A stretch of 64,000 bases of DNA from Candidatus Stercoripulliclostridium sp. (GTDB lineage Bacteria; Bacillota; Clostridia; Christensenellales; DTU072): assembly GCA_045577735.1 (NCBI GenBank), contig JAZNIY010000025.1:130007-194006 (forward strand), in the 5' to 3' direction. The translations under genes were made by a program, and so were the position numbers. Numbering within the stretch: the stretch's first letter is position 1; each line of letters opens with the position of its first letter. Under the pieces are notes generated by a model. The model made no database searches, was not told the DNA's origin, and saw only the letters and a program-made list of their open reading frames with translations. Shown one piece after another: positions 3 through 43,415 of the stretch.

Positions 3-1322
3 CAAAGCCTATTTATGAGCCTTCTCCCCAGAATTTATCAAATCATCAAGGAGATCAACCAACGTTATTGTGCAGACCTTTGGAACGTATTCCCCGGTGA
101 CTGGAACAGAATTGCAAATAACGCAATCTTGAGCGATTTTGAAATTAGAATGGCAAATCTTTGCCTAGTAGCATCACATACCGTAAACGGCGTTTCTCAA
201 CTTCATAGCGATATTTTGAAGAATGACGTATTCGCTGATTACTATAAAGTAGCTCCCGAAAAGTTCACCAACGTAACCAATGGTATTACCCATCGTCGTT
301 GGCTAGCAGAGGCAAACCCCTTGCTCACTGCATATCTAAAAGAACTAATAGGGGACAAATTCCTTAAGGACGCAAGCGAACTTGAAAACTTGATGAAGTA
401 TCAAGGAAACAAACAAGTTTTGGACAGATGGGCAGAAATTAAGTTTAAGAACAAGGAGCGTCTTGCAGAATACGTTAAGAAGTCCAACAACGTTATACTC
501 GATCCCAACTCTATTTTCGACGTACAAGTTAAGAGATTGCACGAGTACAAGCGTCAACTTCTTAATGCACTACAAATATTGTACCTATACAATCGCTTGA
601 AGGAAAATCCCGACCTTGATATTACGCCTAGAACCTTCATATTCGGAGCTAAAGCTGCAAGTAGTTACTACGTTGCAAAGCTCATTATGCGCCTCATCTA
701 TATGATTGGTGAAGTGGTTAACAACGATAAGTCCATTAAAGGAAAACTTAAAGTTGTATTCCTAGAAAACTACCGTGTTTCACTTGCAGAAATCATTATG
801 CCCGCAGCTGAAATTAGTGAACAAATTTCCACAGCCGGTAAAGAAGCAAGTGGTACCGGCAATATGAAGTTTATGATTAACGGTGCCGTTACACTAGGCA
901 CGATGGATGGCGCTAACGTAGAAATCCACGAAAGAGTAGGTGACGAGAACATCTTCATTTTCGGTTTGTTAACCGAAGAAGTAGAAAAGTTGCGTGCAAA
1001 CTATAACCCCACTGAGTACTACTCTAAAGATATGCGCATCAAGCAAATTATCGACCAATTAAGAGTGGGTATTGGTGGCGTAAGTTTTGCTGAACTTGCC
1101 GACAACCTCACCCGTGGTCGTGGTGGTGCAGATCCCTATATGGTACTAGCTGACTTTGGTTCCTACGTAGATGCTCAAGCAAGAGTAGACAGCACCTATA
1201 AAGACAAATATCGTTTCCAAAAGATGAGCTTGGTTAATACTGCTAAAGCAGGTTTCTTCGCAGCTGACCGTAGCGTTGAAGAGTATGCAAAGCGTATTTG
1301 GGGACTCAAAAGCGTTAAATAG
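3..1322 (+). CDS. glgP: glycogen/maltodextrin phosphorylase, C-terminal ~440 aa (5' end outside window)
   Basis: Frame is open from the window edge. It contains the GT35 pyridoxal-phosphate lysine motif EASGTGNMKFMINGA and the conserved C-terminal phosphorylase core. Stop is TAG at 1320-1322. Confidence 0.9.
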   Translation, partial: QSLFMSLLPRIYQIIKEINQRYCADLWNVFPGDWNRIANNAILSDFEIRMANLCLVASHTVNGVSQLHSDILKNDVFADYYKVAPEKFTNVTNGITHRRWLAEANPLLTAYLKELIGDKFLKDASELENLMKYQGNKQVLDRWAEIKFKNKERLAEYVKKSNNVILDPNSIFDVQVKRLHEYKRQLLNALQILYLYNRLKENPDLDITPRTFIFGAKAASSYYVAKLIMRLIYMIGEVVNNDKSIKGKLKVVFLENYRVSLAEIIMPAAEISEQISTAGKEASGTGNMKFMINGAVTLGTMDGANVEIHERVGDENIFIFGLLTEEVEKLRANYNPTEYYSKDMRIKQIIDQLRVGIGGVSFAELADNLTRGRGGADPYMVLADFGSYVDAQARVDSTYKDKYRFQKMSLVNTAKAGFFAADRSVEEYAKRIWGLKSVK

Positions 1323-1340
1323 GACACCATAACGACACAA

Positions 1341-3050
1341 ATGCTTAAGTTTAATTCACGTGATACAACATACAAAACACCCTTTGGTGCGGTAGCAACC
1401 CACCAAAGGGTGAACCTTTTATTCCCGGTAGATAAAACCCTAGGTGCTATTGGGGTTGTTCTTGTTGTGCGTGGGGGTGAAACTTGGAAATTCGACATGC
1501 ATTACTCTGGAAGTGATGCTGGTTATGACAACTACAAGATAGAATTCATCTTGCCTAACGCTGGAATCTATTACTATAGGTTTGAAGTCGTTACCTCCAA
1601 AGGCATGTTGTTCGTTGGCAAGGACGAGAGTGGTAAAGCCATTATTGGTGATTGGCTACCGGAGTGGCAACTAACTTGTTACGATAACGCTTTTAGCACT
1701 CCCAGCTGGTTAAAGGGTGGCGTTATATACCACATTTTCCCCGATCGCTTTAATAGAGAAGAGGATGGTGTAAGACCGGTTAAAGGACCTTTTAAGGAAT
1801 GGGACGAACCGTTGACGATTGTGGATCCGGACGGAGTCTATCGCGCAAACGATTTTTATGGTGGTAACGCTCGAGGGGTTATGGCAAAGTTACCATATTT
1901 AAAAGACTTGGGCATTACTTGCATATACTTTTCTCCCGTATTCGAGTCCTACTCCAATCATCGATACGATACTGCAGACTACACGAAGATAGATAGGCTT
2001 TTTGGTAGCGAAGAAGACTTCAAAGCTCTAATCGATGAAGCTCAAAAGTATGGTATCAATATCATATTGGATGGTGTTTTCAACCATACAGGAGCAGACT
2101 CTATTTACTTTAATAAATTTGGTACTTACCCGGGAAAAGGGGCATATCAGTCCAAAGACAGCAAGTACTACGATTGGTTTACTTTTGAGGAGTTCCCTGA
2201 CGTTTACGATTGTTGGTGGGGATGCACCGTAGTGCCAACGGTATCTAGAAAGGCAAAGCCATTTCAAGATTTTATAACCGGAGAGGGTGGAGTAATAGAC
2301 AAATGGACGAGGCTTGGCGTTAAAGGCTGGAGGCTGGACGTTGTCGACGAGCTCTCTACACCCTTTGTAAGGTCCATAAGAGAGGCAACGAAGCGTGTAA
2401 ATAATGAAATCGCAGTAATAGGCGAGGTATGGGAAGACGCTAGCACAAAGGAGAGCTACGGCGAGAAGCGTACCTATTTCCTAGGCAAAGAACTCGATGG
2501 CGTTATGAATTATCCCTTCCGTACGGCAATAATAAATGCCGTTACTAAAAAGGATGGATTGGCGTTTAAGAATGCTGTTTATGACATAATGGAAAACTAC
2601 CCTAAGTGCGCTCTTGACTGCTGTATGGGGCTTGTAGGGACTCACGATACCATTAGAATATTAAACGTACTCGCTGAGGTTGAAGTGCCCCAAACCAAGC
2701 AAGAAAAGTTGGATTACGTACTTACCCGAGAGGAGTATGAAAAGGGCGTTAGAAGGGTAAAGATGGCTTCTGCGTTACAATTCTTCCTCCCCGGTGTGCC
2801 TACAATTTACTATGGTGACGAGATTGGAATGGATGGATTTGAAGACCCAATTAATCGTAGACCATATGCTTGGTCCAACCCTAATTTAGAGTTACTGGAG
2901 CATTACAAAATGCTAGGTAAAATGCACAAGGAATTTGGACTAGAGGATTGCGTTATAAATGCATTAAAGGGGATAATCGAAATTAAACGTGGTGATTATT
3001 ACTTGACTGTAAACCTTGAAGAAGAAATTTTCAAGATAGAAAAAAGATAA
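1341..3050 (+). CDS. GH13 alpha-amylase family enzyme (neopullulanase/cyclomaltodextrinase-like)
   Basis: GH13 conserved regions are present: GVIYHIFPDRF, DGVFNHTG (region I), GWRLDVVDE (II, nucleophile Asp), EVWED (III), VGTHDT (IV). It starts 18 nt after glgP. Confidence 0.85.
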   Translation: MLKFNSRDTTYKTPFGAVATHQRVNLLFPVDKTLGAIGVVLVVRGGETWKFDMHYSGSDAGYDNYKIEFILPNAGIYYYRFEVVTSKGMLFVGKDESGKAIIGDWLPEWQLTCYDNAFSTPSWLKGGVIYHIFPDRFNREEDGVRPVKGPFKEWDEPLTIVDPDGVYRANDFYGGNARGVMAKLPYLKDLGITCIYFSPVFESYSNHRYDTADYTKIDRLFGSEEDFKALIDEAQKYGINIILDGVFNHTGADSIYFNKFGTYPGKGAYQSKDSKYYDWFTFEEFPDVYDCWWGCTVVPTVSRKAKPFQDFITGEGGVIDKWTRLGVKGWRLDVVDELSTPFVRSIREATKRVNNEIAVIGEVWEDASTKESYGEKRTYFLGKELDGVMNYPFRTAIINAVTKKDGLAFKNAVYDIMENYPKCALDCCMGLVGTHDTIRILNVLAEVEVPQTKQEKLDYVLTREEYEKGVRRVKMASALQFFLPGVPTIYYGDEIGMDGFEDPINRRPYAWSNPNLELLEHYKMLGKMHKEFGLEDCVINALKGIIEIKRGDYYLTVNLEEEIFKIEKR

Positions 3051-3071
3051 TAATGTTGTATTTATTAAAAC

Positions 3072-3100
3072 AAAAAAGGGAACTTAGCGTTCCCTTTTTT
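3072..3100. terminator. bidirectional Rho-independent terminator between convergent genes
   Basis: A6-GGGAAC-TTAGC-GTTCCC-T6 hairpin flanked by A and T runs. Confidence 0.7.
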
Positions 3101-3119
3101 ATTACGATATAGTCTGTAA

Positions 3120-4787
3120 TTATTTGGTGTCTTTAAATATGAAATTGTTATTTTCGATACCCAAAGTCTTCTTTGCCATATCACGAAGTACGAATTTTTG
3201 GATTTTTCCACTTGCCGTCATAGGCATCTTGCTTATGAATTCAACGTAGGAAGGAACCTTGTGACGAGCCATGTTGTTTGCAACGTAGTTTTGAATATCT
3301 TTTTCGGTAACGGTGCTACCAGCTCTCTTGGTAACGAAAGCATAGGCTTCTTCGCCATATTTTTGGCTGGGTACAGCTACGATTTGAACGTCAACAACGT
3401 CGGGGTGTGTATAAATGAAGTCTTCAATTTCTTTGGGGAAGATGTTTTCACCACCACGTATAATCATATCCTTTAGTCTGCCGGTAATTCTATAGTAGCC
3501 GTCGTCATCTTTAACTGCAATGTCACCGGTGTGTAGCCAACCGTCTTTATCAATAGCCGCAACAGTTGCTTCGGGCATTTTGTAGTAACCCTTCATAACG
3601 TTATAGCCACGAACGACGAATTCGCCGGGGGTGCCGTTGGGTACGTCTTCGCCGGTGTCGGCATCAACGATTTTTGTTTCCATAAAGGGAAGTTCTTTAC
3701 CTACGGTTGCAACACGATGTTCAAAGGTTTCATCGGTGGTGGTCATAGTGCAAGCAGGGCTAGCTTCGGTTTGACCATAGGTGATGGTGATTTCCTTCAT
3801 GTTCATCTTGTCTATAACGTCTTGCATAACCTTAATAGGGCAGGGAGAACCAGCCATAATACCGGTACGCAAGGAGCTAAAGTCATAGCGGTTAAAGTCG
3901 CGGTGCTCTAACATTCTAATATACATTGTGGGAACGCCGTGAACAGCCGTGCACTTTTCGTATTCTATAGCGTGCATAACTTTCATGGGTGTATACCATA
4001 GCAATGGAACCATTGCCGTGCCGTGGGTGACGCTAGCCATAATTGCTAGAACCATACCGAAGCAATGGAAGAAGGGTACGGGAATACAAAGCTTATCTTT
4101 GTCGGTAAACTTCATGCAATTACCAATGGCAAGGCCGTTATTAACTATGTTGTTATGAGTAAGCATAACGCCTTTTGGGAAACCGGTGGTACCCGAAGTA
4201 TACTGCATATTTACAACGTCATCAGGATGAACGGCATCCTTAATGGCTTGGAATTCGGCATCGCTAATAAGAACGCCAAAGTGAGGAACTTGTGACCAAT
4301 GGTACATACCTTCGTACCAGTTATCGAAGCTTACAACGTATTTCAAGAAGGGGAGGGTTGCATTGTTAAGTTCACCGGGCTTAGAAGTGCGTAACTCGGG
4401 GCAAACGGAATATATAATCTTTTCGCAGTCGATATCTTTAATACCATCACAAATAAATAGTGCTTTACTATCGGAGTTTGAAAGTAGGTATTCAAGTTCT
4501 GCTTCCTTGTAGTTGGTGTTAACGGTAACTAGGACGGCACCAATTTTTGCAGTAGCGAAGAACAGAATCATCCATTCCGGATAGTTTGTTGCCCATACTG
4601 CAACGTGATCGCCGGGCTTGATGCCCATGCCTAGAAGGCCTCTAGCATAATCATCAACTTCTGCATTAAACTGGTAATAAGTGCGTTTGTAGTTAACTTC
4701 AATGTACTTTATTGCCAAGTTGGTTGGGTATTTGGACGCGATATCTTCAAGCATTTGTCCAACTGTGACGTTAAGTAATTTGTCCAT
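3120..4787 (-). CDS. AMP-dependent acyl-CoA synthetase/ligase (fatty-acid-CoA ligase-like)
   Basis: Contains the AMP-binding signature YTSGTTGFPKGV, plus GEFVVRGYNVMKGYY, GWLHTGD and GKIQK motifs typical of the ANL superfamily. Confidence 0.85.
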   Translation of the reverse strand: MDKLLNVTVGQMLEDIASKYPTNLAIKYIEVNYKRTYYQFNAEVDDYARGLLGMGIKPGDHVAVWATNYPEWMILFFATAKIGAVLVTVNTNYKEAELEYLLSNSDSKALFICDGIKDIDCEKIIYSVCPELRTSKPGELNNATLPFLKYVVSFDNWYEGMYHWSQVPHFGVLISDAEFQAIKDAVHPDDVVNMQYTSGTTGFPKGVMLTHNNIVNNGLAIGNCMKFTDKDKLCIPVPFFHCFGMVLAIMASVTHGTAMVPLLWYTPMKVMHAIEYEKCTAVHGVPTMYIRMLEHRDFNRYDFSSLRTGIMAGSPCPIKVMQDVIDKMNMKEITITYGQTEASPACTMTTTDETFEHRVATVGKELPFMETKIVDADTGEDVPNGTPGEFVVRGYNVMKGYYKMPEATVAAIDKDGWLHTGDIAVKDDDGYYRITGRLKDMIIRGGENIFPKEIEDFIYTHPDVVDVQIVAVPSQKYGEEAYAFVTKRAGSTVTEKDIQNYVANNMARHKVPSYVEFISKMPMTASGKIQKFVLRDMAKKTLGIENNNFIFKDTK

Positions 4788-4811
4788 TTTTTGAGTTCTC
4801 CTAATGTATAT

Positions 4812-5909
4812 CTAGAATAATAATTGTTTGATGATATGGAATACGTCGGTGTTATCGAGTAGGGCGGGAAGACCCTCGGTGCCTACACCGTAAGCGTAAT
4901 AATGTATGTTTTGGGGAGTATGGCCGGAACTGTGGAACCAGTCGTTTGAAATATCTTCAGCTTTTGCTTCGGCGGGAATCTTGAGATTGCCGGTTTCGTG
5001 GTCTGCAAGGACTATAACGGTGGTGTTACCATTCTTTTTTGCCCAGGCAACGGCTCTTGAAACAGCAGCATCAAAACCATTAAGTTCGTCTATCATTTTG
5101 TTGATTTCGTTGGTGTGTGAATAGCTATCAATCTTGGAGCCTTCAACCATAAGGAAGAAGCCGTTCTCATTTTCCAATTTAGAGAGAGCGGTATCGGTTA
5201 AGGAAGCGAGGGTGTTTCTACCGATGTTGGGGATATCTTCGTCCAATAAACCAAAGATTTTTTCGGAAGTAGAAGCATTAATCTCTTCAAAAGAGGTGCA
5301 ATAATCACGATCGTTGGTTTGAATTGAGCTTGCTAGAGCTTTTAATTCATTGTTATTAAGACCAAACAAAACGTCTACGTCGCTAGCAACAATTTGTGAA
5401 GCGATTTCAGCTGTGTTGTTACGGCTTTTGCTGTGAGCAAGGAATGCTGCGGGGGTAGCATCGGTTACTGGTTTCGTTGCAATTATGCCTACTTTCTTGC
5501 CGTTTTGCATTGCAAGTTCTGCAATAGTAGGGATGTTTTTGCCGTCAAGATAGGAAAGCCTACCATTGTAGGTTTTAACACCCGTAGCGTAGGTGGTTGC
5601 AGAGGCGGCGGAATCGGTTGCACCGGCAGACAAACTTCTCGTCATAATCTCACCGGTAACGTTAAGCTTTCTCATATTTAATAGGGAGCCGTTGTTGTAA
5701 AGTTCTGCCGTCTTAATATGGTTTAATCCCATACCGTCACCAATTAGCAGAATGACGTTTTGAGCATTTTCTTCCACAACGGGATCGGTACCATAATTAA
5801 AAAAGTACACGCCGAAAAGGGTAAGACTGCCTGCGATAGTAACAAGTAGTACGCAACTAATGACTATCCATAGTATTTTCTTTTGCTTCTTTAAATCAAT
5901 TTCTTTCAT
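4812..5909 (-). CDS. alkaline phosphatase family protein, N-terminally membrane anchored
   Basis: Motifs LLIGDGMG and TDSAASATTYATG (active-site Ser context). N-terminal hydrophobic helix ILWIVISCVLLVTIAGSLTLFGVYFF. Confidence 0.8.
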   Translation of the reverse strand: MKEIDLKKQKKILWIVISCVLLVTIAGSLTLFGVYFFNYGTDPVVEENAQNVILLIGDGMGLNHIKTAELYNNGSLLNMRKLNVTGEIMTRSLSAGATDSAASATTYATGVKTYNGRLSYLDGKNIPTIAELAMQNGKKVGIIATKPVTDATPAAFLAHSKSRNNTAEIASQIVASDVDVLFGLNNNELKALASSIQTNDRDYCTSFEEINASTSEKIFGLLDEDIPNIGRNTLASLTDTALSKLENENGFFLMVEGSKIDSYSHTNEINKMIDELNGFDAAVSRAVAWAKKNGNTTVIVLADHETGNLKIPAEAKAEDISNDWFHSSGHTPQNIHYYAYGVGTEGLPALLDNTDVFHIIKQLLF

Positions 5910-5917
5910 TTCTACTC

Positions 5918-6904
5918 CTAATATATTTCAAAGCAAGCAAGCTCATAGGTGGGAATTGTTTCTTTAAAAGGATTATTCTTAACTCTGCTACCTTGTCCAA
6001 AACATATTAATATTAGTTCTCTTTCGGAAATGGCGAAGCCTTCTGAAAGGGTGGTGGTAAGGTTGGAGAAACGTCCTGCCTTAACAATTAGTTTATAGTT
6101 TACTTCATCTATCTTGAAAACCACTTCACCACTTACTTTGTTGTAGGGAATGGTTTTTAAGAGTTCCTCGTAGGAAAGAATAGCCCCCATGGAGTAGTCA
6201 ACGTTTCCGCCAAACAGGGGAATGGTGTAGCCCTTTGGTAGAGGGGCCCCGGCGAAGAGTTCTTCTCTCTTTGCAAGTGCTTCTACACATACTCCGTCTT
6301 CACACCAAATGTAACCACAAGGGATACTGTTTTCATAAATTAGGTAACCGAAACCGCCGTGTTTTAGCGAGTTGCCAATTAGTAACTCGCATTCATTTAG
6401 GGTACGAATTCTATAACCAACGTAAGTCGAAATAATTTGGTTATAAAGTTCCGAAACAAGGGGTAAATCATCCGCTTGCATTTTCCTAAAAACAACGTTG
6501 TCCAATGCTGTCTTGGTGGGCGTTATTCTTGTTACGTAATTTATTGTTTCAAACCCCAATTTCCTGTAAAAATCGTGGTTGAATGGGTGTAGTAGTACGA
6601 AGGGGTATCCTTCTTTTTTTAGCTCTGCTTTGGCCTTTTCTACGACCTCTCTGGCAAAGCCTTTGTAGCGATGAAGAGGGGAGGTTGCGACGCCGGTTAG
6701 AAAAGGAATTTTAACAACCTTTCCGTTTAGTGCTAGGTCGAAGAAACGGGCGTAGCAAGCAGAAACGATTACTCCCTCGCTTTCAACGAGATAGGCTTTA
6801 CACTGTGGCATGCGATTTTCAAAGAAAAACTCGGCGTAATCTCCGTCGTTAAAGCAGACCTTATGCAACGCTATGAGTTGGTTTTTTTGTTTTTCATTCA
6901 ACAT
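5918..6904 (-). CDS. GNAT family N-acetyltransferase, Eis-like (GNAT plus SCP2-like C-terminus)
   Basis: GNAT motif A region VATSPLHRYKGFAREVV. The 328-aa length and beta-rich C-terminal third resemble Eis-type enzymes. Identified by eye only. Confidence 0.55.
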   Translation of the reverse strand: MLNEKQKNQLIALHKVCFNDGDYAEFFFENRMPQCKAYLVESEGVIVSACYARFFDLALNGKVVKIPFLTGVATSPLHRYKGFAREVVEKAKAELKKEGYPFVLLHPFNHDFYRKLGFETINYVTRITPTKTALDNVVFRKMQADDLPLVSELYNQIISTYVGYRIRTLNECELLIGNSLKHGGFGYLIYENSIPCGYIWCEDGVCVEALAKREELFAGAPLPKGYTIPLFGGNVDYSMGAILSYEELLKTIPYNKVSGEVVFKIDEVNYKLIVKAGRFSNLTTTLSEGFAISERELILICFGQGSRVKNNPFKETIPTYELACFEIY

Positions 6905-34894: not shown

Positions 34895-36466
34895 ATGGAC
34901 AGACAAATCGTTTTAGTAGTAATGGATGGTATCGGCAAGTCCAAAACCGGACTTGGCGATGCCGTTACCGAAGCACGTACTCCCACGCTCGATAACCTTC
35001 TTGCTACTTGTCCCCACACCTATTTGAAGGCACACGGCACGGCTGTTGGTTTACCTTCTGATGACGATATGGGTAATAGTGAAGTTGGTCACAACGCTCT
35101 TGGCTGTGGTCAAGTTTACTCTCAAGGAGCAAAGCTTGTTAACGAATCCATAGAGAGTGGTGCAATATACGCTTCTAAAGCTTGGAAAGAATTAAAGGAC
35201 AACGTAGTAGAGAATAACTCTACGATGCACTTTATTGGACTACTTTCCGACGGCAACGTTCACTCCAACGTTTCCCACCTTATAGCCATGCTTAAAGAGG
35301 CAAAACAAGAGGGCATCAAAAAGGCAAGAGTGCACGTTCTTCTTGACGGACGTGACGTGCCTGCAACTAGCGCACTCACCTACGTTGATATGCTAGAAGA
35401 AACCCTTGCATCTTTAAACGACGCTAACTTTGACGGCAGAATTGCTTCAGGTGGTGGCAGAATGAAGATAACCATGGACCGTTACTGCGCTAACTGGGAT
35501 ATGGTTAAGAACGGATACAACGTTCACGTTCACGGCATAGGTAGAGGCTTTAACTCTGCAAGTGAAGCTATTAATACCTATAGAGAGGAAAACGCAGGCA
35601 TTATCGACCAAGATTTACCCGCTTTCGTTATTACCGAAAACGGTGCTCCCGTAGGTAAGATTCAAGACAACGATTCCGTTATTTTGTTCAACTTCCGTGG
35701 CGATCGTGCTATCGAAATTAGCATGGCTTTCGACAACGCTGACTTTGACGTTTTCGATCGTGGCAACGCGCCTAAGGTTATGTACGCAGGCATGCTCCAA
35801 TACGACGGAGACCTCCATCTTCCTGCTCGCTTCCTAGTAGAACCTCCTTGCATTAAAGATACTCTTAGCGAGTTCTTAGTAGGTAAAGGGGTATCTCAAT
35901 ATGCTGTTTCGGAAACCCAAAAGTATGGGCACGTAACTTATTTCTGGAATGGTAATCGTTCCGACAAGTTTAGTGAAGAACTCGAAACTTTTGAAGAAAT
36001 TCCTTCCGACAAAGTGTCCTTTGACGAACGTCCTTGGATGAAGAGTGCAGAAGTTACCGATGCACTAATTAACGCAATTAAATCCAACAAATACGGTTTC
36101 ATTAGATGTAACTATCCCAACGGCGATATGGTTGGACATACCGGTAGTTTTGAAGCAACCGTTATTGGTGTAGAATCCGTTGACTTGGCACTTTCTAGAC
36201 TTCTTCCAGTTATTGACGAAGCAAACGCAATTTTGCTCATTACTGCAGACCATGGTAACGCTGATGAAATGCTTGAAAAGAACAAGAAGGGTGCACTTCA
36301 ACCTCGTACTGCACACAGCCTTAATAAGGTCCCCTTCATCGTTTACGGCGTAGACGCAGAAATAGCAGAAAACGACAATGCTGGACTTGCAAACGTTGCT
36401 GCAACCGTTGTTAAATTAATGGGATATGAAGCACCTGCAAGTTGGGAAGCTTCCATAATCAAATAG
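34895..36466 (+). CDS. gpmI: 2,3-bisphosphoglycerate-independent phosphoglycerate mutase
   Basis: Contains DGIG, the SEVGHNALG catalytic Ser region, and ADHGNAD. It is 523 aa and starts 3 nt after the tpiA stop. Confidence 0.9.
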   Translation: MDRQIVLVVMDGIGKSKTGLGDAVTEARTPTLDNLLATCPHTYLKAHGTAVGLPSDDDMGNSEVGHNALGCGQVYSQGAKLVNESIESGAIYASKAWKELKDNVVENNSTMHFIGLLSDGNVHSNVSHLIAMLKEAKQEGIKKARVHVLLDGRDVPATSALTYVDMLEETLASLNDANFDGRIASGGGRMKITMDRYCANWDMVKNGYNVHVHGIGRGFNSASEAINTYREENAGIIDQDLPAFVITENGAPVGKIQDNDSVILFNFRGDRAIEISMAFDNADFDVFDRGNAPKVMYAGMLQYDGDLHLPARFLVEPPCIKDTLSEFLVGKGVSQYAVSETQKYGHVTYFWNGNRSDKFSEELETFEEIPSDKVSFDERPWMKSAEVTDALINAIKSNKYGFIRCNYPNGDMVGHTGSFEATVIGVESVDLALSRLLPVIDEANAILLITADHGNADEMLEKNKKGALQPRTAHSLNKVPFIVYGVDAEIAENDNAGLANVAATVVKLMGYEAPASWEASIIK

Positions 36467-36491
36467 GTTTCATAAACTTAATATTTAAGAA

Positions 36492-36516
36492 AGGTAGTTT
36501 TTAACTACCTTTTTTT
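36492..36516 (+). terminator. Rho-independent terminator after gpmI
   Basis: AGGTAGTT-TTT-AACTACCT followed by T7. Confidence 0.75.
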
Positions 36517-36561
36517 ATGTTCCGTTAACATTATTTTAACATTTCTTTTGGACTTTCTATA

Positions 36562-36590
36562 TTGACACGCGCGTATGTATGCGTTATAAT
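36562..36590 (+). promoter_or_regulatory. consensus sigma-A promoter of the ABC exporter operon
   Basis: TTGACA, 17-nt spacer (CGCGCGTATGTATGCGT), TATAAT. Confidence 0.65.
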
Positions 36591-36623
36591 ATATATTAAT
36601 ATTTTATAAAAGAGGATTTGGGA

Positions 36624-39600
36624 ATGTTCAAACTTTTCCGCAATTTGAAACCGATGGCTTGGATGATAGTAATTATCATCATTCTCGTCACGGGCCAAGC
36701 AATTGCAGAACTGTATTTGCCCGAAAAGATGTCCGAAATTATTGACGATGGTATATACATCGATTACGAGCCCTTGTACGAGCATTTGGAAATGGAAAAG
36801 CCCTCCAGCCTTTCCTCCGTTGACTCCGAAAAGACTCTTAAGGGTTATGATGAAGATACCATACCTGTCTTTGAAATGGTAGAAGGTTTCTCCACCTACG
36901 ACCTCGCGGCAGCAATCCAAGAGGAAGAGGGGGGAGACGTTACCATCGACTTCGTATTCCGTGACATTCCGGTTAAAGACAGCCAACAATTGTTTGACGA
37001 CGTAATGACTCCTTTCTTGGAAGGATTGAAACCTTACCAAGAAACTGCATTCGAGTGGCGTGACGCAAATGTTCCAGAAGACAAATGGGATGACTGGTCG
37101 CCGACTTTCTGGGGTGGATATTATACCAATGAAGACCGTGCTCGCATTGCAGAAGTTATTAATGCTCTTTTGGTTTTCGACATTGGTGACAATTACGAAG
37201 CCTCAAAGACCAACAAATCTTCCATTCAAATAGAGGGAGACGATGACGATATTACCGTTAACAGCCTTCTTAACCAAGATCCACGCGTTGACGAAGATGC
37301 AATGGCAAACGAGTCTAATCGTAGGATTTTGACGGCTTGCATAAGTCGTATGAAGCATTCCGAATACGGCAACCTTATGCCCATACCGATAGACAAGAAC
37401 GGCAATAGGCTTGCAACCGATAAGTTTGGTAGGGCGTTTGAAGACGATAAGTTGGTTTACGTATACAGTGATGCTGACGGAGAACAAGTGGAAACGGTAA
37501 AACAAAGTTATACCGGTAGAGCAGATCCCATGCCCGACTACGAAGTTATTATTTGTAACAACGTTTTGGGATATGCCTACAAGTATGAAGGTGCTAAATG
37601 GGTTGATACCTACCGTGGCATTACCGACGAAGATGCACAAACCCTTGCAAGCGAGTATAACGCAAATATTCTTATCGAGGCACTAATTACCAAGAATAGG
37701 CATCGTGATAAATTTACTGCCGATCAAGTAAAGTCAATAACGGATGACATCAATCGTATGTGCAAATGGTATGTTGAAGCCGACGATCATATCTTACTTG
37801 CAAACCTCTTGAACCTAAATAACAAAAAGCCCGAAAGAATAATAAAAGAACTTTCCAAATATTATCAAACGGAAAAGGATGAAAACGGACTAATAGTTTC
37901 CAAAACGCCACTTAAAGACAAGAGCACTTTTGGAAGCCAATGGAAACAATTTTGGATTAGAGTAGGCAACTATCTAACCCTTTCTGCTACCGGCACAAGC
38001 AAACAAGCTTTTGAAGACTCCGTTAAGTCCGGTAACATAACAAACTTTAGCATCGCTTTAGTAGAGTTTAAGACATACAAAGACATGATGCTTCCCGATG
38101 GTCAAACCACCCAAACAGACGACTTAACGTTCATCTTAAAGCGTGGTGGTACCATGTTGTTGCTAACCGTAGCTGCTTGTGGATGTGCAATCCTTGCAGC
38201 GTTACTCAGCTCCAAGCTCGCTTCCGAGTTTAGTGCTATTATTAGAAGTAAGGTATTCGGCAAGGTTGAAACCTTCTCCCTCATTGAGTTTGATAGATAT
38301 TCTACCTCCAGCCTTATTACACGTTCTACCAACGACGTTAACCAAATCCAACAAGTATTCTTGCTTATCCTAAGAACGGGACTTATTGCCCCCATTACCT
38401 TGATAGGCGGTACGATAATGTCAATAGAAAAGTCGTTCAAGATGACGGCAGTTATCTTCTACGATATTCCTATCCTAGTAATTGCTTCCGTTATGGCCGC
38501 AAAGGTTGTTTATCCTTTGTTCCAAACCATACAAAAGAAGGTTGACAAACTAACCCTTATTACCCGTGAAGGTCTAACGGGTATCCGTGTCGTACGTGCC
38601 TTCAATAAACAAGAAACCGAAAACGAACGCTTTAACGAGGTTAACCAAAGCCTCACCAAGACGGCTATTGCAGTTAACAGATGGTGTGCCGTGCTCGCTC
38701 CGTTGATCGCAGTTGTTATGAACTGCTCAATGGTTGGCGTTGTTTGGAGAGCAAGCGTACAAATTGCTAACAATGCGGACATCGACGTAGGCGATATGAT
38801 GGCGGTTATACAATATATGACCCAAATTATGATGGCTCTCGTTATGCTCGCAACCGTATTCGTTATGTTCCCGCGTGCTACTGCTTCTGCACTACGTATA
38901 AATGAAATACTTGCAACCGAGCCCGAACTAAAAGACCCCGAAACTCCAAATAATAATTATGATTCGGTTGGATCCGTTAAGTTCGAGAACGTAAACTTCA
39001 AGTATTCAGAGGAGGCGGAGAATTACATTCTCTCGGACATTAACTTCCACGCAGAAAAGGGCAAAGTCACCGCAATCGTAGGTGGTACGGGAAGTGGTAA
39101 GAGCTCGGTAATCAACTTGATACCTCGTTTCTACGATACTACCGAAGGTAACATTTTGGTTGACGGCGTGGACGTAAGAGAAATTCCCCAAGAAGAATTG
39201 CGCTTAAAGATTGGTTTCGTACCACAAAGAAGCGTGCTCTTTAGTGGAACTATTAGAGAAAATCTTTGCTATGGTAAAGTGGATGCAACCGACGACGAAT
39301 GTTGGGAAGCGCTTGAAATTGCTCAAAGCGATACCTTCGTAAGAGAGAAAGAGGGACAACTTGATGCAAGGGTAGAGCAAGGTGGAGGCAACTTCTCCGG
39401 TGGTCAAAAACAACGTCTTGCTATTGCTCGTGCAATCATCCGTAAGCCCGAAATACTTATATTTGACGATTCATTCTCCGCTCTTGACTTTAGAACGGAC
39501 AAGAACTTACGTCAAGCCCTAAAGAGAATTACTAGCGAAAGCGCAACTATAATAGTAGCACAACGTATTGGTACTATTATGGATGCCGACAATATCATTG

Positions 39601-39716
39601 TTTTGGACGGAGGCAAGATTGTAGGACAAGGTAAGCACGAATACCTAGTTCGCAACTGTGACGTTTATCGTGATATTGCACTTTCACAAATGAGCGAGGA
39701 GGAACTTGGACTATGA
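36624..39716 (+). CDS. ABC exporter permease/ATPase subunit (degenerate-site partner) with ~460-aa extracytoplasmic insertion
   Basis: Start set at the ATG 7 nt after SD AAGAGGA. TM1 is followed by a long acidic non-hydrophobic segment (aa ~45-505), then a normal type I exporter TMD. The NBD has Walker A GGTGSGKSS, signature SGGQKQ, Walker B ILIFDDS (Asp in place of the catalytic Glu) and an AQR switch (Gln in place of His). Confidence 0.85.
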   Translation: MFKLFRNLKPMAWMIVIIIILVTGQAIAELYLPEKMSEIIDDGIYIDYEPLYEHLEMEKPSSLSSVDSEKTLKGYDEDTIPVFEMVEGFSTYDLAAAIQEEEGGDVTIDFVFRDIPVKDSQQLFDDVMTPFLEGLKPYQETAFEWRDANVPEDKWDDWSPTFWGGYYTNEDRARIAEVINALLVFDIGDNYEASKTNKSSIQIEGDDDDITVNSLLNQDPRVDEDAMANESNRRILTACISRMKHSEYGNLMPIPIDKNGNRLATDKFGRAFEDDKLVYVYSDADGEQVETVKQSYTGRADPMPDYEVIICNNVLGYAYKYEGAKWVDTYRGITDEDAQTLASEYNANILIEALITKNRHRDKFTADQVKSITDDINRMCKWYVEADDHILLANLLNLNNKKPERIIKELSKYYQTEKDENGLIVSKTPLKDKSTFGSQWKQFWIRVGNYLTLSATGTSKQAFEDSVKSGNITNFSIALVEFKTYKDMMLPDGQTTQTDDLTFILKRGGTMLLLTVAACGCAILAALLSSKLASEFSAIIRSKVFGKVETFSLIEFDRYSTSSLITRSTNDVNQIQQVFLLILRTGLIAPITLIGGTIMSIEKSFKMTAVIFYDIPILVIASVMAAKVVYPLFQTIQKKVDKLTLITREGLTGIRVVRAFNKQETENERFNEVNQSLTKTAIAVNRWCAVLAPLIAVVMNCSMVGVVWRASVQIANNADIDVGDMMAVIQYMTQIMMALVMLATVFVMFPRATASALRINEILATEPELKDPETPNNNYDSVGSVKFENVNFKYSEEAENYILSDINFHAEKGKVTAIVGGTGSGKSSVINLIPRFYDTTEGNILVDGVDVREIPQEELRLKIGFVPQRSVLFSGTIRENLCYGKVDATDDECWEALEIAQSDTFVREKEGQLDARVEQGGGNFSGGQKQRLAIARAIIRKPEILIFDDSFSALDFRTDKNLRQALKRITSESATIIVAQRIGTIMDADNIIVLDGGKIVGQGKHEYLVRNCDVYRDIALSQMSEEELGL

Positions 39717-41650
39717 ACGAATTAGAAAAAATTAGCTCCAACGAACAACCTCAACAAGGACTAGACTTAGGCCGTGCTCTAGGTGTAGGTGGCCCCGAAA
39801 TTAAAGAAGTCGATAAAGCCGAAAACTTTAAGGCTACGCTTGTTAGACTTGTCAAATATCTAAAACCCCAATACCCCATGCTCATAGCAATGATTTTGAT
39901 TGCTGCAATAGGTGCTTGGTTTGCTATTTGGGTTCCCGATATTATGAAGAAAGTTACCAATGCGTTGGTAGACAGTATTCAATACTTTGTCGACATTAGG
40001 AGACCTCCACAAGGTAACGGACAGCTTTATACCTACATTGCTCCCGTACTTTGGACGTGCGCAATATTGTACGTATTAAACGCCTTGTTCCAATTTACCT
40101 CTGGACTAATCGCAGCATCTATGAGCCAAAGAGTTGTTAGACGTATGCGTACCGACGTTAAGTTAAAACTTGACAAGGTACCACTTTCATACTTTGACGG
40201 AACACCTCTAGGCGACGTACTCTCTCGTTTTACCATCGATATCGAAATGATATCGCTAACGCTACAAGACTCCATTAACCAAATTATAACGGGCGTAATG
40301 ACGGTAGCAGGCGTATTCATTATGATGGTTCGTATCGACTGGCTTCTAGCGATTATTGCTCTTGTAAGCTTGCCAATACTATTAATTGTTTCTAGCGTTA
40401 TAGTTAAACGCTCACAAATTGAATTTGCCCGTCAACAAAAACGCATAGGTCAACTTAACGGACACATTGAAGAAATGTACACGGGGCACCGCGTAATTAA
40501 ACTTTATGGTCACGAAGAAGAAAGTATTTTGACCTATGAGCAAATCAATAAGGAGCTTAAGAAAGCAACTAGACGCTCACAATTCCTTGCCGGTGTAATT
40601 TTGCCTAGCATTAAGTTTATTGATAACTTAGTATACGTAGGCATCTGTGTGGGCGGAGGTATTAGAGCTGGTACGGGTCTTGTAACAATAGGTGACATCC
40701 AAGCGCTACTATCCTATACCAGACAGTTTGCTCAACCTATTGAGAACATTTCCAACATTGCAAACACCATTCAATCTTCCATTGCGGCAGCAGAGCGTGT
40801 ATTCCAAGTATTCGACCTTCAAGAAATGACCCCTGAAGGCAAAAGAAGTATTTCTGTTGAAAATTGTATTGGTACTGTTGATATTGAACACGTTGAATTT
40901 AGCTACACCAAGGATAAGCCTCTTATTACCGACCTAAGCTTGCACGTTAATGCAGGTGATAGCATAGCAATAGTAGGTCCCACCGGTGCAGGTAAGACAA
41001 CCCTCGTTAACTTGCTAATGAGGTTCTACGACATTAATTCCGGACGCATTCTCATTGACGGTGTAGACATTAACGAATACAGCCGTAACGACTTGCGTAG
41101 CTTGTATGGAATGGTTCTACAAGACACTTGGTTGTTTAACGGTACGGTAGCCGAAAACATTGCTTACGGCAACCCGAACGCAACGAGAGAAGAGATAATC
41201 GAAGCAGCAAAGGAAGCTTACGCCGACCAATTCATACAAACGATGGAACACGGCTACGATACCGTTCTTAAGGAAGATGCCGCTAACATTAGTGCCGGTC
41301 AAAAGCAACTCTTGACCATTGCTCGTGCAATACTCAAGAAGCCTAGAATCATCATACTTGACGAAGCGACGAGTTCGGTTGATACACGTACTGAAAAGTA
41401 CATTCAAAGCGCAATGCTTGCTATGACGGAAGGCAAGACCAACTTCGTTATTGCACACAGACTTTCCACCATCAAGCACGCTCAAGTAATACTAGTTATG
41501 AATCATGGTGACGTTGTAGAGCAAGGTAACCACGAAACTCTAATGGCTAAGAAGGGATTCTATTACGAACTTTATAACTCACAATTTGCCGGTGTTACCG
41601 ACGACAACAAGGACGACGATACGGCAAGTTCAAGATTTATTCAATCATAA
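39713..41650 (+). CDS. ABC exporter permease/ATPase subunit (consensus-site partner)
   Basis: Overlaps the upstream stop (ATGA). Walker A GPTGAGKTT, Walker B IIILDEATS, H-loop AHR, but a degenerate signature SAGQKQ. The TMD has 6 helices. Confidence 0.9.
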   Translation: MNELEKISSNEQPQQGLDLGRALGVGGPEIKEVDKAENFKATLVRLVKYLKPQYPMLIAMILIAAIGAWFAIWVPDIMKKVTNALVDSIQYFVDIRRPPQGNGQLYTYIAPVLWTCAILYVLNALFQFTSGLIAASMSQRVVRRMRTDVKLKLDKVPLSYFDGTPLGDVLSRFTIDIEMISLTLQDSINQIITGVMTVAGVFIMMVRIDWLLAIIALVSLPILLIVSSVIVKRSQIEFARQQKRIGQLNGHIEEMYTGHRVIKLYGHEEESILTYEQINKELKKATRRSQFLAGVILPSIKFIDNLVYVGICVGGGIRAGTGLVTIGDIQALLSYTRQFAQPIENISNIANTIQSSIAAAERVFQVFDLQEMTPEGKRSISVENCIGTVDIEHVEFSYTKDKPLITDLSLHVNAGDSIAIVGPTGAGKTTLVNLLMRFYDINSGRILIDGVDINEYSRNDLRSLYGMVLQDTWLFNGTVAENIAYGNPNATREEIIEAAKEAYADQFIQTMEHGYDTVLKEDAANISAGQKQLLTIARAILKKPRIIILDEATSSVDTRTEKYIQSAMLAMTEGKTNFVIAHRLSTIKHAQVILVMNHGDVVEQGNHETLMAKKGFYYELYNSQFAGVTDDNKDDDTASSRFIQS

Positions 41651-41659
41651 CAAAGCGGA

Positions 41660-41688
41660 GGCGGAGCGAAATGCTCCGCCTTAATTTT
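41660..41688 (+). terminator. Rho-independent terminator after the ABC operon
   Basis: GGCGGAGC-GAAAT-GCTCCGCC followed by a T-rich tract. Confidence 0.7.
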
Positions 41689-42995: not shown

Positions 42996-43415
42996 ATGGA
43001 CGGGCGACTTACAATTACTACCGCAAAAAACGAAATATACTTCTATACAAATTGTAATTATGCGTATACTAAAAGTGATACAGCGCAAATTAGTTTTGTA
43101 TATGAAAGCGATTTTCGTAAATATAATATAGTAATTGGTGTCAACCATGATAAAGTTGCTCTTAACATCACATCTTTTGACGTGGATGAAGTAGCAGAAA
43201 GTACCTTTAACGTTTTGACCTTCGCGCGTGGTGCTTCACCAAGAAACACCACCGTGGAGTTCGAGTATCTCAAGTTCACATTTGTACCAGAAGACGTTTT
43301 TGTTGATTACGGCAAGGATTTTGCAGACTTAGTTTTACGTTGTTCTTATTCCACTCTTACCCAAAATCCACGTTCGACAGTAATGAAAATTTCAGTTAAG
43401 ATTCCTACCGAATAA
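42996..43415 (+). CDS. hypothetical protein (139 aa, beta-rich; possibly DUF1934-like)
   Basis: The ORF lies between well-supported genes on the same strand. I recognise no motif confidently. There is no SD, and a -10 box lies 4 nt upstream. Confidence 0.5.
   Translation: MDGRLTITTAKNEIYFYTNCNYAYTKSDTAQISFVYESDFRKYNIVIGVNHDKVALNITSFDVDEVAESTFNVLTFARGASPRNTTVEFEYLKFTFVPEDVFVDYGKDFADLVLRCSYSTLTQNPRSTVMKISVKIPTE

What the first reader, a model, noticed from the sequence alone, without database searches (positions are those of the whole stretch)
36756..38140. ~460-aa extracytoplasmic domain inserted between TM1 and TM2 of a type I ABC exporter
The N-terminus (MFKLFRNLKPMAWMIVIIIILVTGQAIAELYLPEKMSEIIDDGI) is a normal TM1 of a Sav1866/MsbA-type exporter. 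The usual short first external loop is replaced by about 460 residues of acidic, non-hydrophobic sequence with no motif I recognise. TM2 then resumes (GGTMLLLTVAACGCAILAALLSSKLASEF).

This makes the subunit 1,030 aa, against roughly 580-650 aa for typical homologs; the partner subunit here is 645 aa. Large ectodomains are known in MacB-type and eukaryotic ABCA/ABCG transporters. They are not a standard feature of this fold, which suggests substrate capture, a receptor role or a cell-wall-facing function.
Basis: partly seen in the sequence, partly recalled or inferred. Interest (0 to 1): 0.55.

Follow-up and report, generated by a model that had tools for sequence, protein, structure and literature searches.

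The report
ABC exporter with big orphan ectodomain
One half of an otherwise ordinary two-gene ABC export pump in uncultured gut Clostridia carries a conserved, acidic domain of about 450 residues on the outside of the cell; it resembles no known protein family or solved structure, it is about five times larger than the only comparable add-ons known in this pump class, and its function is unknown.

Summary
The ORF at 36624-39716 encodes a 1030-aa half-transporter. About 453 residues (aa 45-497) are inserted cleanly into extracellular loop 1, between TM1 and TM2. With the insert deleted in silico, the protein aligns colinearly with MsRv1273c (8wcw_A) and TM287.

The insert is not an assembly artefact. 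It is intact in 21 species-level genomes and 6 metagenome contigs at a syntenic locus. At least 113 further protein clusters (880-930 aa) carry a shorter homologous version of 311-360 aa. dN/dS is 0.04-0.08. Every version is acidic (pI 4.05-4.61) and none has a hydrophobic segment.

It has no Pfam, NCBIfam or PDB sequence match. An exhaustive profile search of 1.84 billion representatives found it only in this architecture. A confident AlphaFold2 model (pLDDT 82.8) has no Foldseek neighbour in PDB or BFVD.

There are precedents for small ECL1 ectodomains in this fold: BmrD (a small β-rich domain) and MsRv1272c (48 aa). Both sit on the consensus-site subunit. This one sits on the degenerate-site subunit.

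I read it as an exit cap or substrate hand-off domain coupled to TM1/TM2 movement. The function is inferred, not shown. It is a new variant of a known kind.

The parts
36562..36590 (+). Sigma-70-type promoter of the two-gene ABC operon (TTGACA, 17 nt, TATAAT)
   Evidence: 12 of 12 consensus match, the best in the region. It lies downstream of a hairpin plus T-run that follows gpmI (read from the sequence).
36624..39716 (+). ABC_A: 1030-aa half-transporter (TMD plus NBD) carrying the ectodomain. This is the degenerate-site subunit, like TM287 and MsRv1273c.
   Evidence: ORF. RBS AAGAGGA 8 nt upstream of the ATG. PF00664 and PF00005 matches. Best PDB matches are 8wcw_A and 3qf4_A.
36654..36722 (+). 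TM1 (about aa 11-33), preceded by the cationic elbow segment MFKLFRNLKP and followed by the conserved IIDDGI motif (aa 39-44)
   Evidence: Hydropathy peak 2.26 at aa 2-34. Aligns to TM1 of 8wcw_A once the insert is removed.
36756..38114 (+). Ectodomain inserted in extracellular loop 1 (aa 45-497, about 453 aa). It is acidic, has no TM segment and belongs to an orphan family.
   Evidence: No Pfam, NCBIfam or PDB sequence hit. 179 of 461 columns invariant in 22 orthologs. dN/dS 0.04-0.08. AlphaFold2 pLDDT 82.8, pTM 0.79. No Foldseek neighbour. Junction mapped by in-silico deletion.
37677..37922 (+). Clade-specific sub-module of the ectodomain (insert residues 308-389, protein aa 352-433). It is mostly helical and is absent from the ~900-aa relatives.
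   Evidence: Under 20% occupancy in 112 short-type relatives. Helices 322-338, 342-354 and 359-367, plus two short strands at 371-383, in the model. Coincides with a dip in GC to 0.36-0.37.
38058..38114 (+). Conserved neck returning to TM2 (…KDMMLPDGxTxQT…, protein aa 479-497)
   Evidence: P447, D448, G449, T451 and Q453 (insert numbering) are at least 90% conserved in 122 sequences.
38142..38903 (+). TM2-TM6 of the ABC_A transmembrane domain
   Evidence: PF00664 profile positions 42-274 at aa 506-739. Hydropathy peaks.
38904..39713 (+). Nucleotide-binding domain of ABC_A with degenerate catalytic residues: Walker A 39081-39104, signature FSGGQ 39393-39407, Walker B ILIFDD (Asp in place of the catalytic Glu) 39453-39470, H-loop IVAQR (Gln in place of His) 39552-39566
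   Evidence: PF00005 match. Motif coordinates. MsRv1273c has the same substitutions: IFDDAFSALD and SQRIS in the alignment, and Asp497/Gln528 in PMC12038006.
39713..41650 (+). ABC_B: 645-aa partner half-transporter, the consensus-site subunit. It has Walker B IIILDE, H-loop AHR and a non-canonical signature ISAGQ, an N-terminal extension of about 50 aa, and an ECL1 I estimate to be about 20-25 aa longer than in TM288.
   Evidence: ORF overlapping the stop of ABC_A. PF00664 and PF00005 matches. Best PDB matches are 8wcw_B and 3qf4_B. Motifs. The ECL1 comparison is my own reading of the sequence and was not computed.
41658..41682 (+). Intrinsic terminator closing the operon
   Evidence: 11-bp stem with 7 GC pairs and a T-rich tail, 8 nt after the ABC_B stop.

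Best explanation
**Shown.** The locus is a bicistronic operon for a heterodimeric type IV (Sav1866/TM287-288-type) ABC exporter with one degenerate ATP site. A folded, strongly acidic domain is inserted exactly into extracellular loop 1 of the degenerate-site subunit. It is about 453 aa here and 311-360 aa in most relatives. It belongs to an orphan sequence family with no solved structural neighbour. It is inherited vertically at a syntenic locus across a deep clade of uncultured gut Clostridia (Stercoripulliclostridium and Christensenellales-like MAGs).

**Inferred.** The domain hangs from the outer ends of TM1 and TM2, and these helices move during the inward-to-outward transition. It therefore sits over the exit of the translocation pathway and is mechanically coupled to the ATP cycle. 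The most likely role is an exit cap or substrate-receiving and hand-off chamber. Its negative surface would favour cationic or metal-associated cargo. This would be a greatly enlarged, independently evolved counterpart of the small ECL1 ectodomains of BmrD and MsRv1272c. The transported substrate is unknown.
For: **Architecture and operon**
- Architecture.
- Operon signals.
- Clean insertion at IIDDGI^(T)DD.
- Degenerate and consensus motif pattern.

**A real, selected domain**
- Intact in 21 genomes and 6 metagenome loci with conserved pgk-tpi-gpmI-A-B-prs synteny.
- At least 113 further clusters carry a homologous insert.
- 179 of 461 columns invariant, dN/dS 0.04-0.08.
- Family-wide pI 4.05-4.61.

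**Orphan status**
- No Pfam, NCBIfam or PDB sequence hit.
- The profile search of 1.84 billion representatives returns 14 proteins. The long ones match from residue 45, directly after TM1, and the four I read are this architecture or fragments of it.
- Confident model (pLDDT 82.8) with no Foldseek hit at E<=0.001 in PDB or BFVD.

**Cap or hand-off analogy**
- The BmrD ECD caps the gate, moves between the inward- and outward-facing states, and its deletion abolishes substrate-stimulated ATPase (10.1101/2021.03.13.435271; PMC12644906).
- The ECL1 hairpin of MsRv1272c lies on the release path (PMC12038006).
- The segments nearest the membrane (YxDYEPxY after TM1, PDGxTxQ before TM2) are among the most conserved.
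Against: - No substrate, phenotype or expression data exist.
- The gene neighbourhood is housekeeping and uninformative.
The position of the domain over the exit is therefore deduced from topology, not observed.
- The known small ECDs sit on the consensus-site subunit, while this one sits on the degenerate-site subunit. The analogy is therefore not exact.
- A 330-460-aa domain with nearly invariant Cys/His/Asp/Glu positions is larger and more elaborate than a passive cap needs to be. This leaves room for an enzymatic, binding or mechanotransducing role.
- AlphaFold DB could not be searched, so "no structural neighbour" holds only for PDB and BFVD.
Confidence: 0.5

Rival explanations
1. Mechanotransmission or extracytoplasmic work. 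The type IV transporter is used as an ATP-driven motor whose TM1/TM2 movements drive a reaction or a binding-and-release cycle in the ectodomain, as in MacB, LolCDE and FtsEX. Alternatively, the ectodomain is a fused capture domain for an exporter-fold importer such as YbtPQ. In this reading the ectodomain is the business end, not an accessory cap.
For: - The domain is large (330-460 aa), independently folded and carries nearly invariant polar or nucleophilic residues: C195, H201, D261, E263, C267, plus a frequent CxxC.
- It is tethered by two conserved neck segments to helices that move in the transport cycle.
- It is kept over deep divergence even though the core alone would make a complete exporter.
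- Type IV-fold importers are known (PMC7002159, listed).
Against: - No Pfam or Foldseek similarity to any enzyme, binding protein or MacB/FtsX periplasmic domain.
- No partner gene such as an adaptor, hydrolase or two-component system in the conserved neighbourhood.
- The conserved Cys and His are not spaced like any catalytic dyad I could match (own reasoning).
- The core is most similar to drug-efflux-type pumps.
Confidence: 0.25
2. Surface-exposed structural or shielding appendage. The ectodomain mainly protects, spaces or anchors the pump in the cell envelope (for example contact with wall polymers, or a surface that varies under phage or host pressure). It has no direct role in the transport cycle.
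For: - The insert evolves faster than the core (39% against 63% mean identity to the window).
- It gains and loses loops and a whole 82-aa sub-module between clades.
- It is uniformly highly acidic, as many Gram-positive surface proteins are (own knowledge).
Against: - dN/dS is as low as in the NBD.
- About 70 positions are at least 90% conserved across 122 sequences, which is more constraint than a spacer needs.
- No cell-wall-binding repeats or known anchoring domains are present.
Confidence: 0.15
3. Artefact or selfish insertion. The segment is an assembly chimera, a frameshift-fused neighbour, an intein or a mobile-element remnant, and not part of the functional protein.
For: - Some public fragments of the family are chimeric or frameshifted (P0002, P0003, P0006, P0008, P0015, P0016).
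- NCBI annotations start the gene inside the insert.
- GC dips over the clade-specific sub-module.
Against: - The same in-frame architecture appears in 27 independent assemblies and in at least 113 protein clusters.
- Selection is purifying.
- No intein or Hint hit in Pfam, and the junction residues (Y at +1...TQT at the end) lack intein splice-site residues (read from the sequence).
- No repeats or transposase flank it.
- The clipped annotations sit inside intact ORFs of 1025 and 1031 aa.
Confidence: 0.02

Closest known systems
BmrCD (YheI/YheH) of Bacillus subtilis: the extracellular domain of BmrD (PDB 7M33, 8FHK, 8T1P)
   Same: - A heterodimeric type IV ABC exporter with one degenerate ATP site.
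- An extra folded domain inserted between TM1 and TM2, on the outside, above the extracellular gate.
- Acidic patches are present.
- That domain moves with the ATP cycle and is needed for substrate-stimulated ATPase (10.1101/2021.03.13.435271; PMC12644906).
   Different: - The BmrD ECD is small. I estimate about 90-100 aa from the 673-aa chain and the alignment offsets. It is mostly β-stranded, described as a PBP4 C-terminal-domain fold (PMC11466899), and it sits on the consensus-site subunit.
- The window's domain is about 453 aa, mixed α/β, and sits on the degenerate-site subunit.
- There is no sequence similarity. Foldseek found no match at E<=0.001 in the PDB library, whose cut-off of April 2026 is later than the BmrCD structures.
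- The window's partner matches BmrD only from TM2 onward.
MsRv1273c/MsRv1272c mycobacterial isoniazid efflux pump (PDB 8WCW and related entries)
   Same: - The closest solved relatives of both subunits.
- Identical degenerate-site substitutions: Walker B Asp, H-loop Gln.
- The partner has an N-terminal extension.
- An ECL1-derived "ECD" caps the exit and is proposed to help substrate release (PMC12038006).
   Different: - The mycobacterial ECD is a 48-residue helical hairpin on MsRv1272c, the consensus-site subunit.
- MsRv1273c, the counterpart of the window's big subunit, has only about 2 residues where the window has about 453.
TM287/TM288 of Thermotoga maritima (PDB 3QF4, 4Q4A)
   Same: The same heterodimeric architecture and degenerate site. 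The insert-deleted protein aligns over residues 14-579 of TM287.
   Different: No ectodomain at all.
MacB/FtsX-type (type VII) and BceAB-type ABC transporters with large periplasmic domains
   Same: A large extracytoplasmic domain held between two TM helices of an ABC transporter and potentially driven by their movement. In MacB it also lies between TM1 and TM2 (PMC5985334).
   Different: A completely different transmembrane fold (4-TM FtsX, PF02687, with MacB_PCD, PF12704). None of these families matched; the TMD here is PF00664.

Membership tests
Type IV (Sav1866/MsbA/ABCB-type) ABC exporter half-transporter | Six-helix ABC_membrane TMD (PF00664) fused N-terminal to an ABC_tran NBD (PF00005) on one polypeptide | tested here: met
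   PF00664 E=1.1e-35 (aa 506-739) and PF00005 E=6.5e-30 (aa 803-951). TM1 is recovered once the insert is removed; the alignment covers 8wcw_A residues 14-576.
Heterodimeric type IV exporter with a degenerate nucleotide-binding site (TM287/288, BmrCD, MsRv1273c/72c group) | Two adjacent, co-transcribed half-transporter genes | tested here: met
   The stop of A overlaps the start of B at 39713-39716. One promoter and one terminator. The pair is conserved in every locus long enough to show it.
Heterodimeric type IV exporter with a degenerate nucleotide-binding site (TM287/288, BmrCD, MsRv1273c/72c group) | One subunit has Asp for the catalytic Walker B Glu and Gln for the H-loop His. The other subunit has canonical catalytic residues and a deviant signature motif. 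| tested here: met
   A has ILIFDD and IVAQR. B has IIILDE, VIAHR and signature ISAGQ. MsRv1273c shows the same substitutions in the alignment and in PMC12038006.
Heterodimeric type IV exporter with a degenerate nucleotide-binding site (TM287/288, BmrCD, MsRv1273c/72c group) | ATP-dependent export of a substrate | not testable with these tools
   No functional data exist for these uncultured organisms.
BmrD-type ECL1 extracellular domain | Folded domain inserted between TM1 and TM2 on the extracellular side | tested here: met
   Insertion mapped to ECL1. No TM segment inside it.
BmrD-type ECL1 extracellular domain | Located on the consensus-site (BmrD/TM288-like) subunit | tested here: not met
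   The insert is on the subunit with Walker B Asp and H-loop Gln, which matches the TM287/MsRv1273c chains best.
BmrD-type ECL1 extracellular domain | Small β-rich domain homologous or structurally similar to the BmrD ECD (PBP4 C-terminal-like fold) | tested here: not met
   No PDB sequence hit at E<=10 with either the single sequence or the profile, apart from one chance uL22 match. No Foldseek hit at E<=0.001 against PDB, and no ABC transporter chain among the 50 matches listed. The model is mixed α/β and 461 aa long.
MacB/FtsX (type VII) transporters with a periplasmic domain | FtsX 4-TM permease fold (PF02687) with MacB_PCD (PF12704) | tested here: not met
   Neither family appears at E<=1 for the protein or at E<=0.1 for 33 diverse inserts.
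Intein or mobile insertion | Hint/intein domains, with Cys/Ser/Thr at the N-junction and His-Asn at the C-junction | tested here: not met
   No such Pfam hit. The insert starts with Y and ends with ...TQT.

The most novel reading that the evidence does not exclude
The ectodomain is a new fold that turns a type IV ABC "exporter" into an ATP-driven extracytoplasmic machine. TM1/TM2 movements would power a binding, release or catalytic cycle at a conserved Cys/His/acidic site outside the cell, for example metal or cationic-ligand handling, or envelope remodelling. That would be a MacB/FtsEX-like mechanotransmission principle evolved independently in the Sav1866 fold, in a widespread group of gut Clostridia.
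Probability: 0.2. Interest if true: 0.8.

Novelty: new variant of a known kind. Interest (0 to 1): 0.55.

Why it matters
**For transporter mechanism.** Type IV ABC exporters are the best-studied ABC fold, and they are usually treated as having bare extracellular loops. BmrD showed that a small ECL1 domain can gate and tune transport. This family shows that the same site can host a domain of 330-460 residues with no detectable relative, on the opposite (degenerate-site) subunit, kept for a long evolutionary time. It offers a natural system for asking how far extracellular appendages take part in release, specificity or mechanotransmission in this fold.

**For protein-family catalogues.** It adds an uncatalogued domain family from abundant but uncultured gut Clostridia.

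**For genome annotation.** Public pipelines often start the gene at an internal ATG, which hides the domain. Length-based and homology-based start selection can systematically erase lineage-specific insertions in this way.

Tried and rejected
1. **Insert-only searches of the 5.8-billion-protein index** returned only 10-15 fragments and suggested a tiny family. This was misleading. The word-index prefilter missed the ~900-aa relatives, which appeared only when the core was used as the query and then proved to carry a homologous insert.
2. **First AlphaFold2 run** on a 16-sequence alignment gave pLDDT 49 and was discarded.
4. **Profile against PDB sequences** gave only a chance uL22 match at E=0.71.
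5. **Weak sub-threshold hits** were inconsistent across members and I treat them as noise: DUF7083, DUF2533, and NCBIfam PRK08356 at 20 bits against a cutoff of 189.
6. **Internal duplication** was tested by hhalign between five segments and none was found. The single high score comes from deliberately overlapping segments.
7. **Catalytic Cys-His dyad** (papain-, NlpC/P60-, sortase- or C39-like) was considered for C195, H201 and C267 (insert numbering). I rejected it on spacing and order, and because Foldseek found no similarity. A metal or redox site remains possible but untested.
8. **Intein, chimera and cytoplasmic-loop readings** were rejected (see the rival explanations).
9. **Neighbourhood-based function inference** led nowhere. 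The neighbours are glycolysis genes, PRPP synthetase and an MBL-fold protein.
10. **Geometry of the model** could not be inspected, because coordinates are not exposed. This includes N-to-C terminus distance and clustering of conserved residues.
Full report
**1.
- The + strand ORF at 36618..39716 has an AAGAGGA ribosome-binding site 8 nt before the ATG at 36624. That start gives 1030 aa.
- The next ORF (39713..41650, 645 aa) starts inside the stop codon of the first.
- Pfam places ABC_membrane at aa 506-739, but only from profile position 42. ABC_tran is at aa 803-951. Nothing significant matches aa 45-505. NCBIfam likewise matches MsbA-like models only from about aa 500 onward.
- The hydropathy maximum inside the insert is 0.99, against 1.9-2.4 for the six TM segments. 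The insert has 86 acidic and 49 basic residues, pI 4.4.

**2. The insertion site is exact.**
- The intact protein matches the solved chains 8wcw_A and 3qf4_A only from aa 499-500.
- I deleted aa 45-497 in silico. The remaining 577 aa aligned colinearly with 8wcw_A residues 14-576, with one 1-residue gap at the junction...IIDDGIT-DDLTFILKRGG... against ...IIDDGVAKGDTARIVELGA.... The score rose from 457 to 479 bits.
- So about 453 residues replace about 2 loop residues of extracellular loop 1 (ECL1).
- The +3 charge before TM1, the acidic stretch after it, and the known topology of the solved homologs all place the insert outside the cell (PMC12038006).

**3. It is not an artefact.**
- A genome scan found the full-length insert, in frame, in 21 species-level genomes at 59-88% identity. 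All are Candidatus Stercoripulliclostridium or unnamed Clostridia MAGs from animal guts.
- Gene order is conserved: pgk, tpi, gpmI, ABC_A, ABC_B, PRPP synthetase, MBL-fold protein.
- Six metagenome loci extend this to a much more divergent lineage (pgk about 68% identical). The core there is about 60% identical and the insert 33-41% identical, still at the same locus.
- Within the close clade, 179 of 461 insert columns are invariant. Pairwise dN/dS in the insert is 0.04-0.08, like the NBD; dS is near saturation, so this is an upper-level indication of purifying selection.
- GC content is continuous across both junctions.

**4. The family is larger than it first looked.**
- Insert-only searches of the 5.8-billion-protein index gave only 10-15 fragments.
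- An exhaustive HMMER profile search of 1.84 billion 50%-identity representatives gave 14 proteins. The long ones match from residue 45, directly after TM1, and the four I read are this architecture or fragments of it.
- Searching with the core (TM2 to the C-terminus) changed the picture. The 120 best relatives (61-94% identical) are almost all 880-930 aa long. Inspection shows the same insert motifs.
- In 113 such proteins the insert is 311-360 aa (median 336). It is about 39% identical to the window's insert, while the core is about 63% identical.
- The window's clade has the long form at 461 aa, and P0017 is intermediate at 422 aa.
- The extra length comes mainly from an 82-residue sub-module (insert residues 308-389) plus a few loops.
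- None of the 120 closest core relatives lacks the insert. The few short entries are fragments or clipped gene calls.
- Source names are generic, such as "ABC transporter ATP-binding protein" or "subfamily B multidrug efflux pump", from Clostridiales or Christensenellales MAGs.

**5. What the domain is.**
- It has no Pfam, NCBIfam or PDB sequence relative, whether I search with the window's sequence, with 33 diverse members, or with a profile.
- It has no internal repeat.
- Every member is acidic: pI 4.05-4.61, net charge -19 to -54.
- Across 122 sequences, about 70 positions are at least 90% conserved, in these blocks:
  - YxDYEPxY, directly after TM1
  - IPVFEMxDGFSTxD
  - FxFxDIxVxxSxxLF...PF
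  - C195...MKHSxxGNxxPIP
  - DYExxxCNxVxGxAxKYxxxKW
  - PDGxTxQ, directly before TM2
- With that 122-sequence alignment, AlphaFold2 gave a confident mixed α/β model: mean pLDDT 82.8, pTM 0.79, above 85 for most of residues 1-370, and low only around residues 380-440 and the tail.
- An earlier run with 16 sequences was useless, at pLDDT 49.
- Foldseek found no match at E<=0.001 in PDB (best E=1.3, query TM-score 0.13 or less) or in BFVD.
- AlphaFold DB was not available. The claim is therefore "no solved or viral-predicted neighbour", not yet "new fold".

**6. The transporter around it.**
- A perfect TTGACA-17-TATAAT promoter (36562-36590) and a strong terminator (41658-41682) frame a two-gene operon.
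- The big subunit has Walker B ILIFDD (Asp instead of the catalytic Glu) and H-loop IVAQR (Gln instead of His).
- The partner has IIILDE, AHR and a deviant signature ISAGQ.
- This is the pattern of TM287/288 and MsRv1273c/72c, the best PDB matches for the two subunits respectively (PMC12038006).

**7. Comparison with what is known.** Small ECL1 ectodomains exist in this fold.
- BmrD of BmrCD has a mostly β-stranded domain between TM1 and TM2. It caps the extracellular gate and moves in the inward-to-outward transition. Its removal abolishes substrate stimulation of ATPase (10.1101/2021.03.13.435271; PMC12644906; PMC11466899).
- MsRv1272c has a 48-residue helical hairpin on the release path (PMC12038006).
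- Both are on the consensus-site subunit.
- The domain here is about 5 times larger, is unrelated in sequence and predicted fold, and sits on the degenerate-site subunit.
- MacB/FtsX-type periplasmic domains share the idea of an ectodomain driven by TM helices, but they belong to a different fold and did not match.

**8. Mechanism.**
- *Shown:* architecture, topology by homology, selection, distribution and orphan status.
- *Inferred:* the domain hangs from the outer ends of TM1 and TM2 through two highly conserved neck segments. It must therefore lie over or beside the exit, and it must feel the opening of the TM wings.
- I consider an exit cap or substrate hand-off chamber the most likely role, by analogy with BmrD and MsRv1272c. 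The acidic surface would favour cationic or metal-bound cargo.
- Its size, together with nearly invariant C195, H201, D261, E263 and C267 (insert numbering; plus a frequent CxxC that the window itself lacks), keeps open a more active role. That could be binding, redox or metal handling, or mechanotransmission. I rate this at about 0.2-0.25.
- A purely structural surface appendage is less likely, given the level of constraint.

**9. Verdict.** This is a real, conserved and previously undescribed ectodomain family in a known transporter class. It is a new variant of a known kind and of moderate interest (0.55). Its function is unresolved and testable by the experiments listed under next steps.

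Noticed in passing
L004 (ORF 2974-6051) and L009 (ORF 896-3991); proteins P0009, P0010, P0027: NCBI MAG annotations call this gene as 604, 589 and 545 aa "ABC transporter ATP-binding protein". For P0009 and P0010 the call starts at an internal ATG (residues 422 and 443) of uninterrupted ORFs of 1025 and 1031 aa, so TM1 and the ectodomain are missing from the public protein records. P0027 begins just before TM2 of a P0017-like gene and looks like the same clipping, but its source contig was not among the fetched loci, so this was not verified.
   Followed up: yes
window 37206-37556 (protein aa 195-311, which contains insert residues 195-267): C195, H201 and C267 (insert numbering) are at least 90% conserved family-wide. 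Most relatives also have C198, giving CxxCMKH, but the window has Arg there. This may be a metal or redox site. The spacing does not fit a known Cys-His catalytic dyad.
   Followed up: partly
window 37650-38100: GC drops to 0.36-0.37 and AT skew rises to about 0.27-0.29. This overlaps the clade-specific 82-aa sub-module (37677-37922) that the ~900-aa relatives lack. It could reflect a later acquisition, or just a Lys/Asn/Ile-rich composition.
   Followed up: no
P0002, P0015, P0016 (ENA contigs); P0003, P0006, P0008, P0013: Several public fragments of this family are chimeric: P0002 is fused to an AMP-binding C-terminal domain, and P0015 and P0016 continue into high-GC junk. Others are frameshifted. 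I cannot tell whether these are assembly or sequencing errors or real pseudogenes.
   Followed up: no
L024:2274-3806, L025:2202-3737, L027:4122-5624 versus window 34895-36466: In the divergent lineage, pgk and tpi are about 70% identical to the window's genes. The gpmI at the same position is only 37-38% identical. This suggests a non-orthologous or highly diverged phosphoglycerate mutase at a syntenic position.
   Followed up: no
L024:4038-5751, L025:3983-5757: The divergent lineage has two extra genes between gpmI and the ABC operon: a CitMHS-family permease and an XRE-HTH plus cupin regulator. Both are absent from the window.
   Followed up: partly
window 42996-43415: A 139-aa ORF between the PRPP synthetase and the MBL-fold gene has no Pfam hit. 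It is much less conserved than its neighbours (55-88% identity) and was not detected in the more distant loci.
   Followed up: partly
window 39713-40030 (ABC_B aa 1-106): The partner subunit has an N-terminal extension of about 50 aa. By my own reading of the sequence (not computed), its ECL1 is about 20-25 aa longer than in TM288. This is reminiscent of the N-terminal extending loop and ECL1 hairpin of MsRv1272c, but the region does not align by sequence (the match starts at aa 108).
   Followed up: partly
window 36470-36520: A hairpin plus T-run (aaaggtagtt-tttaactacc-ttttttt) directly after gpmI looks like an intrinsic terminator. It would separate the glycolytic genes from the ABC operon. 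The consensus scan did not list it, probably because it has too few GC pairs.
   Followed up: no
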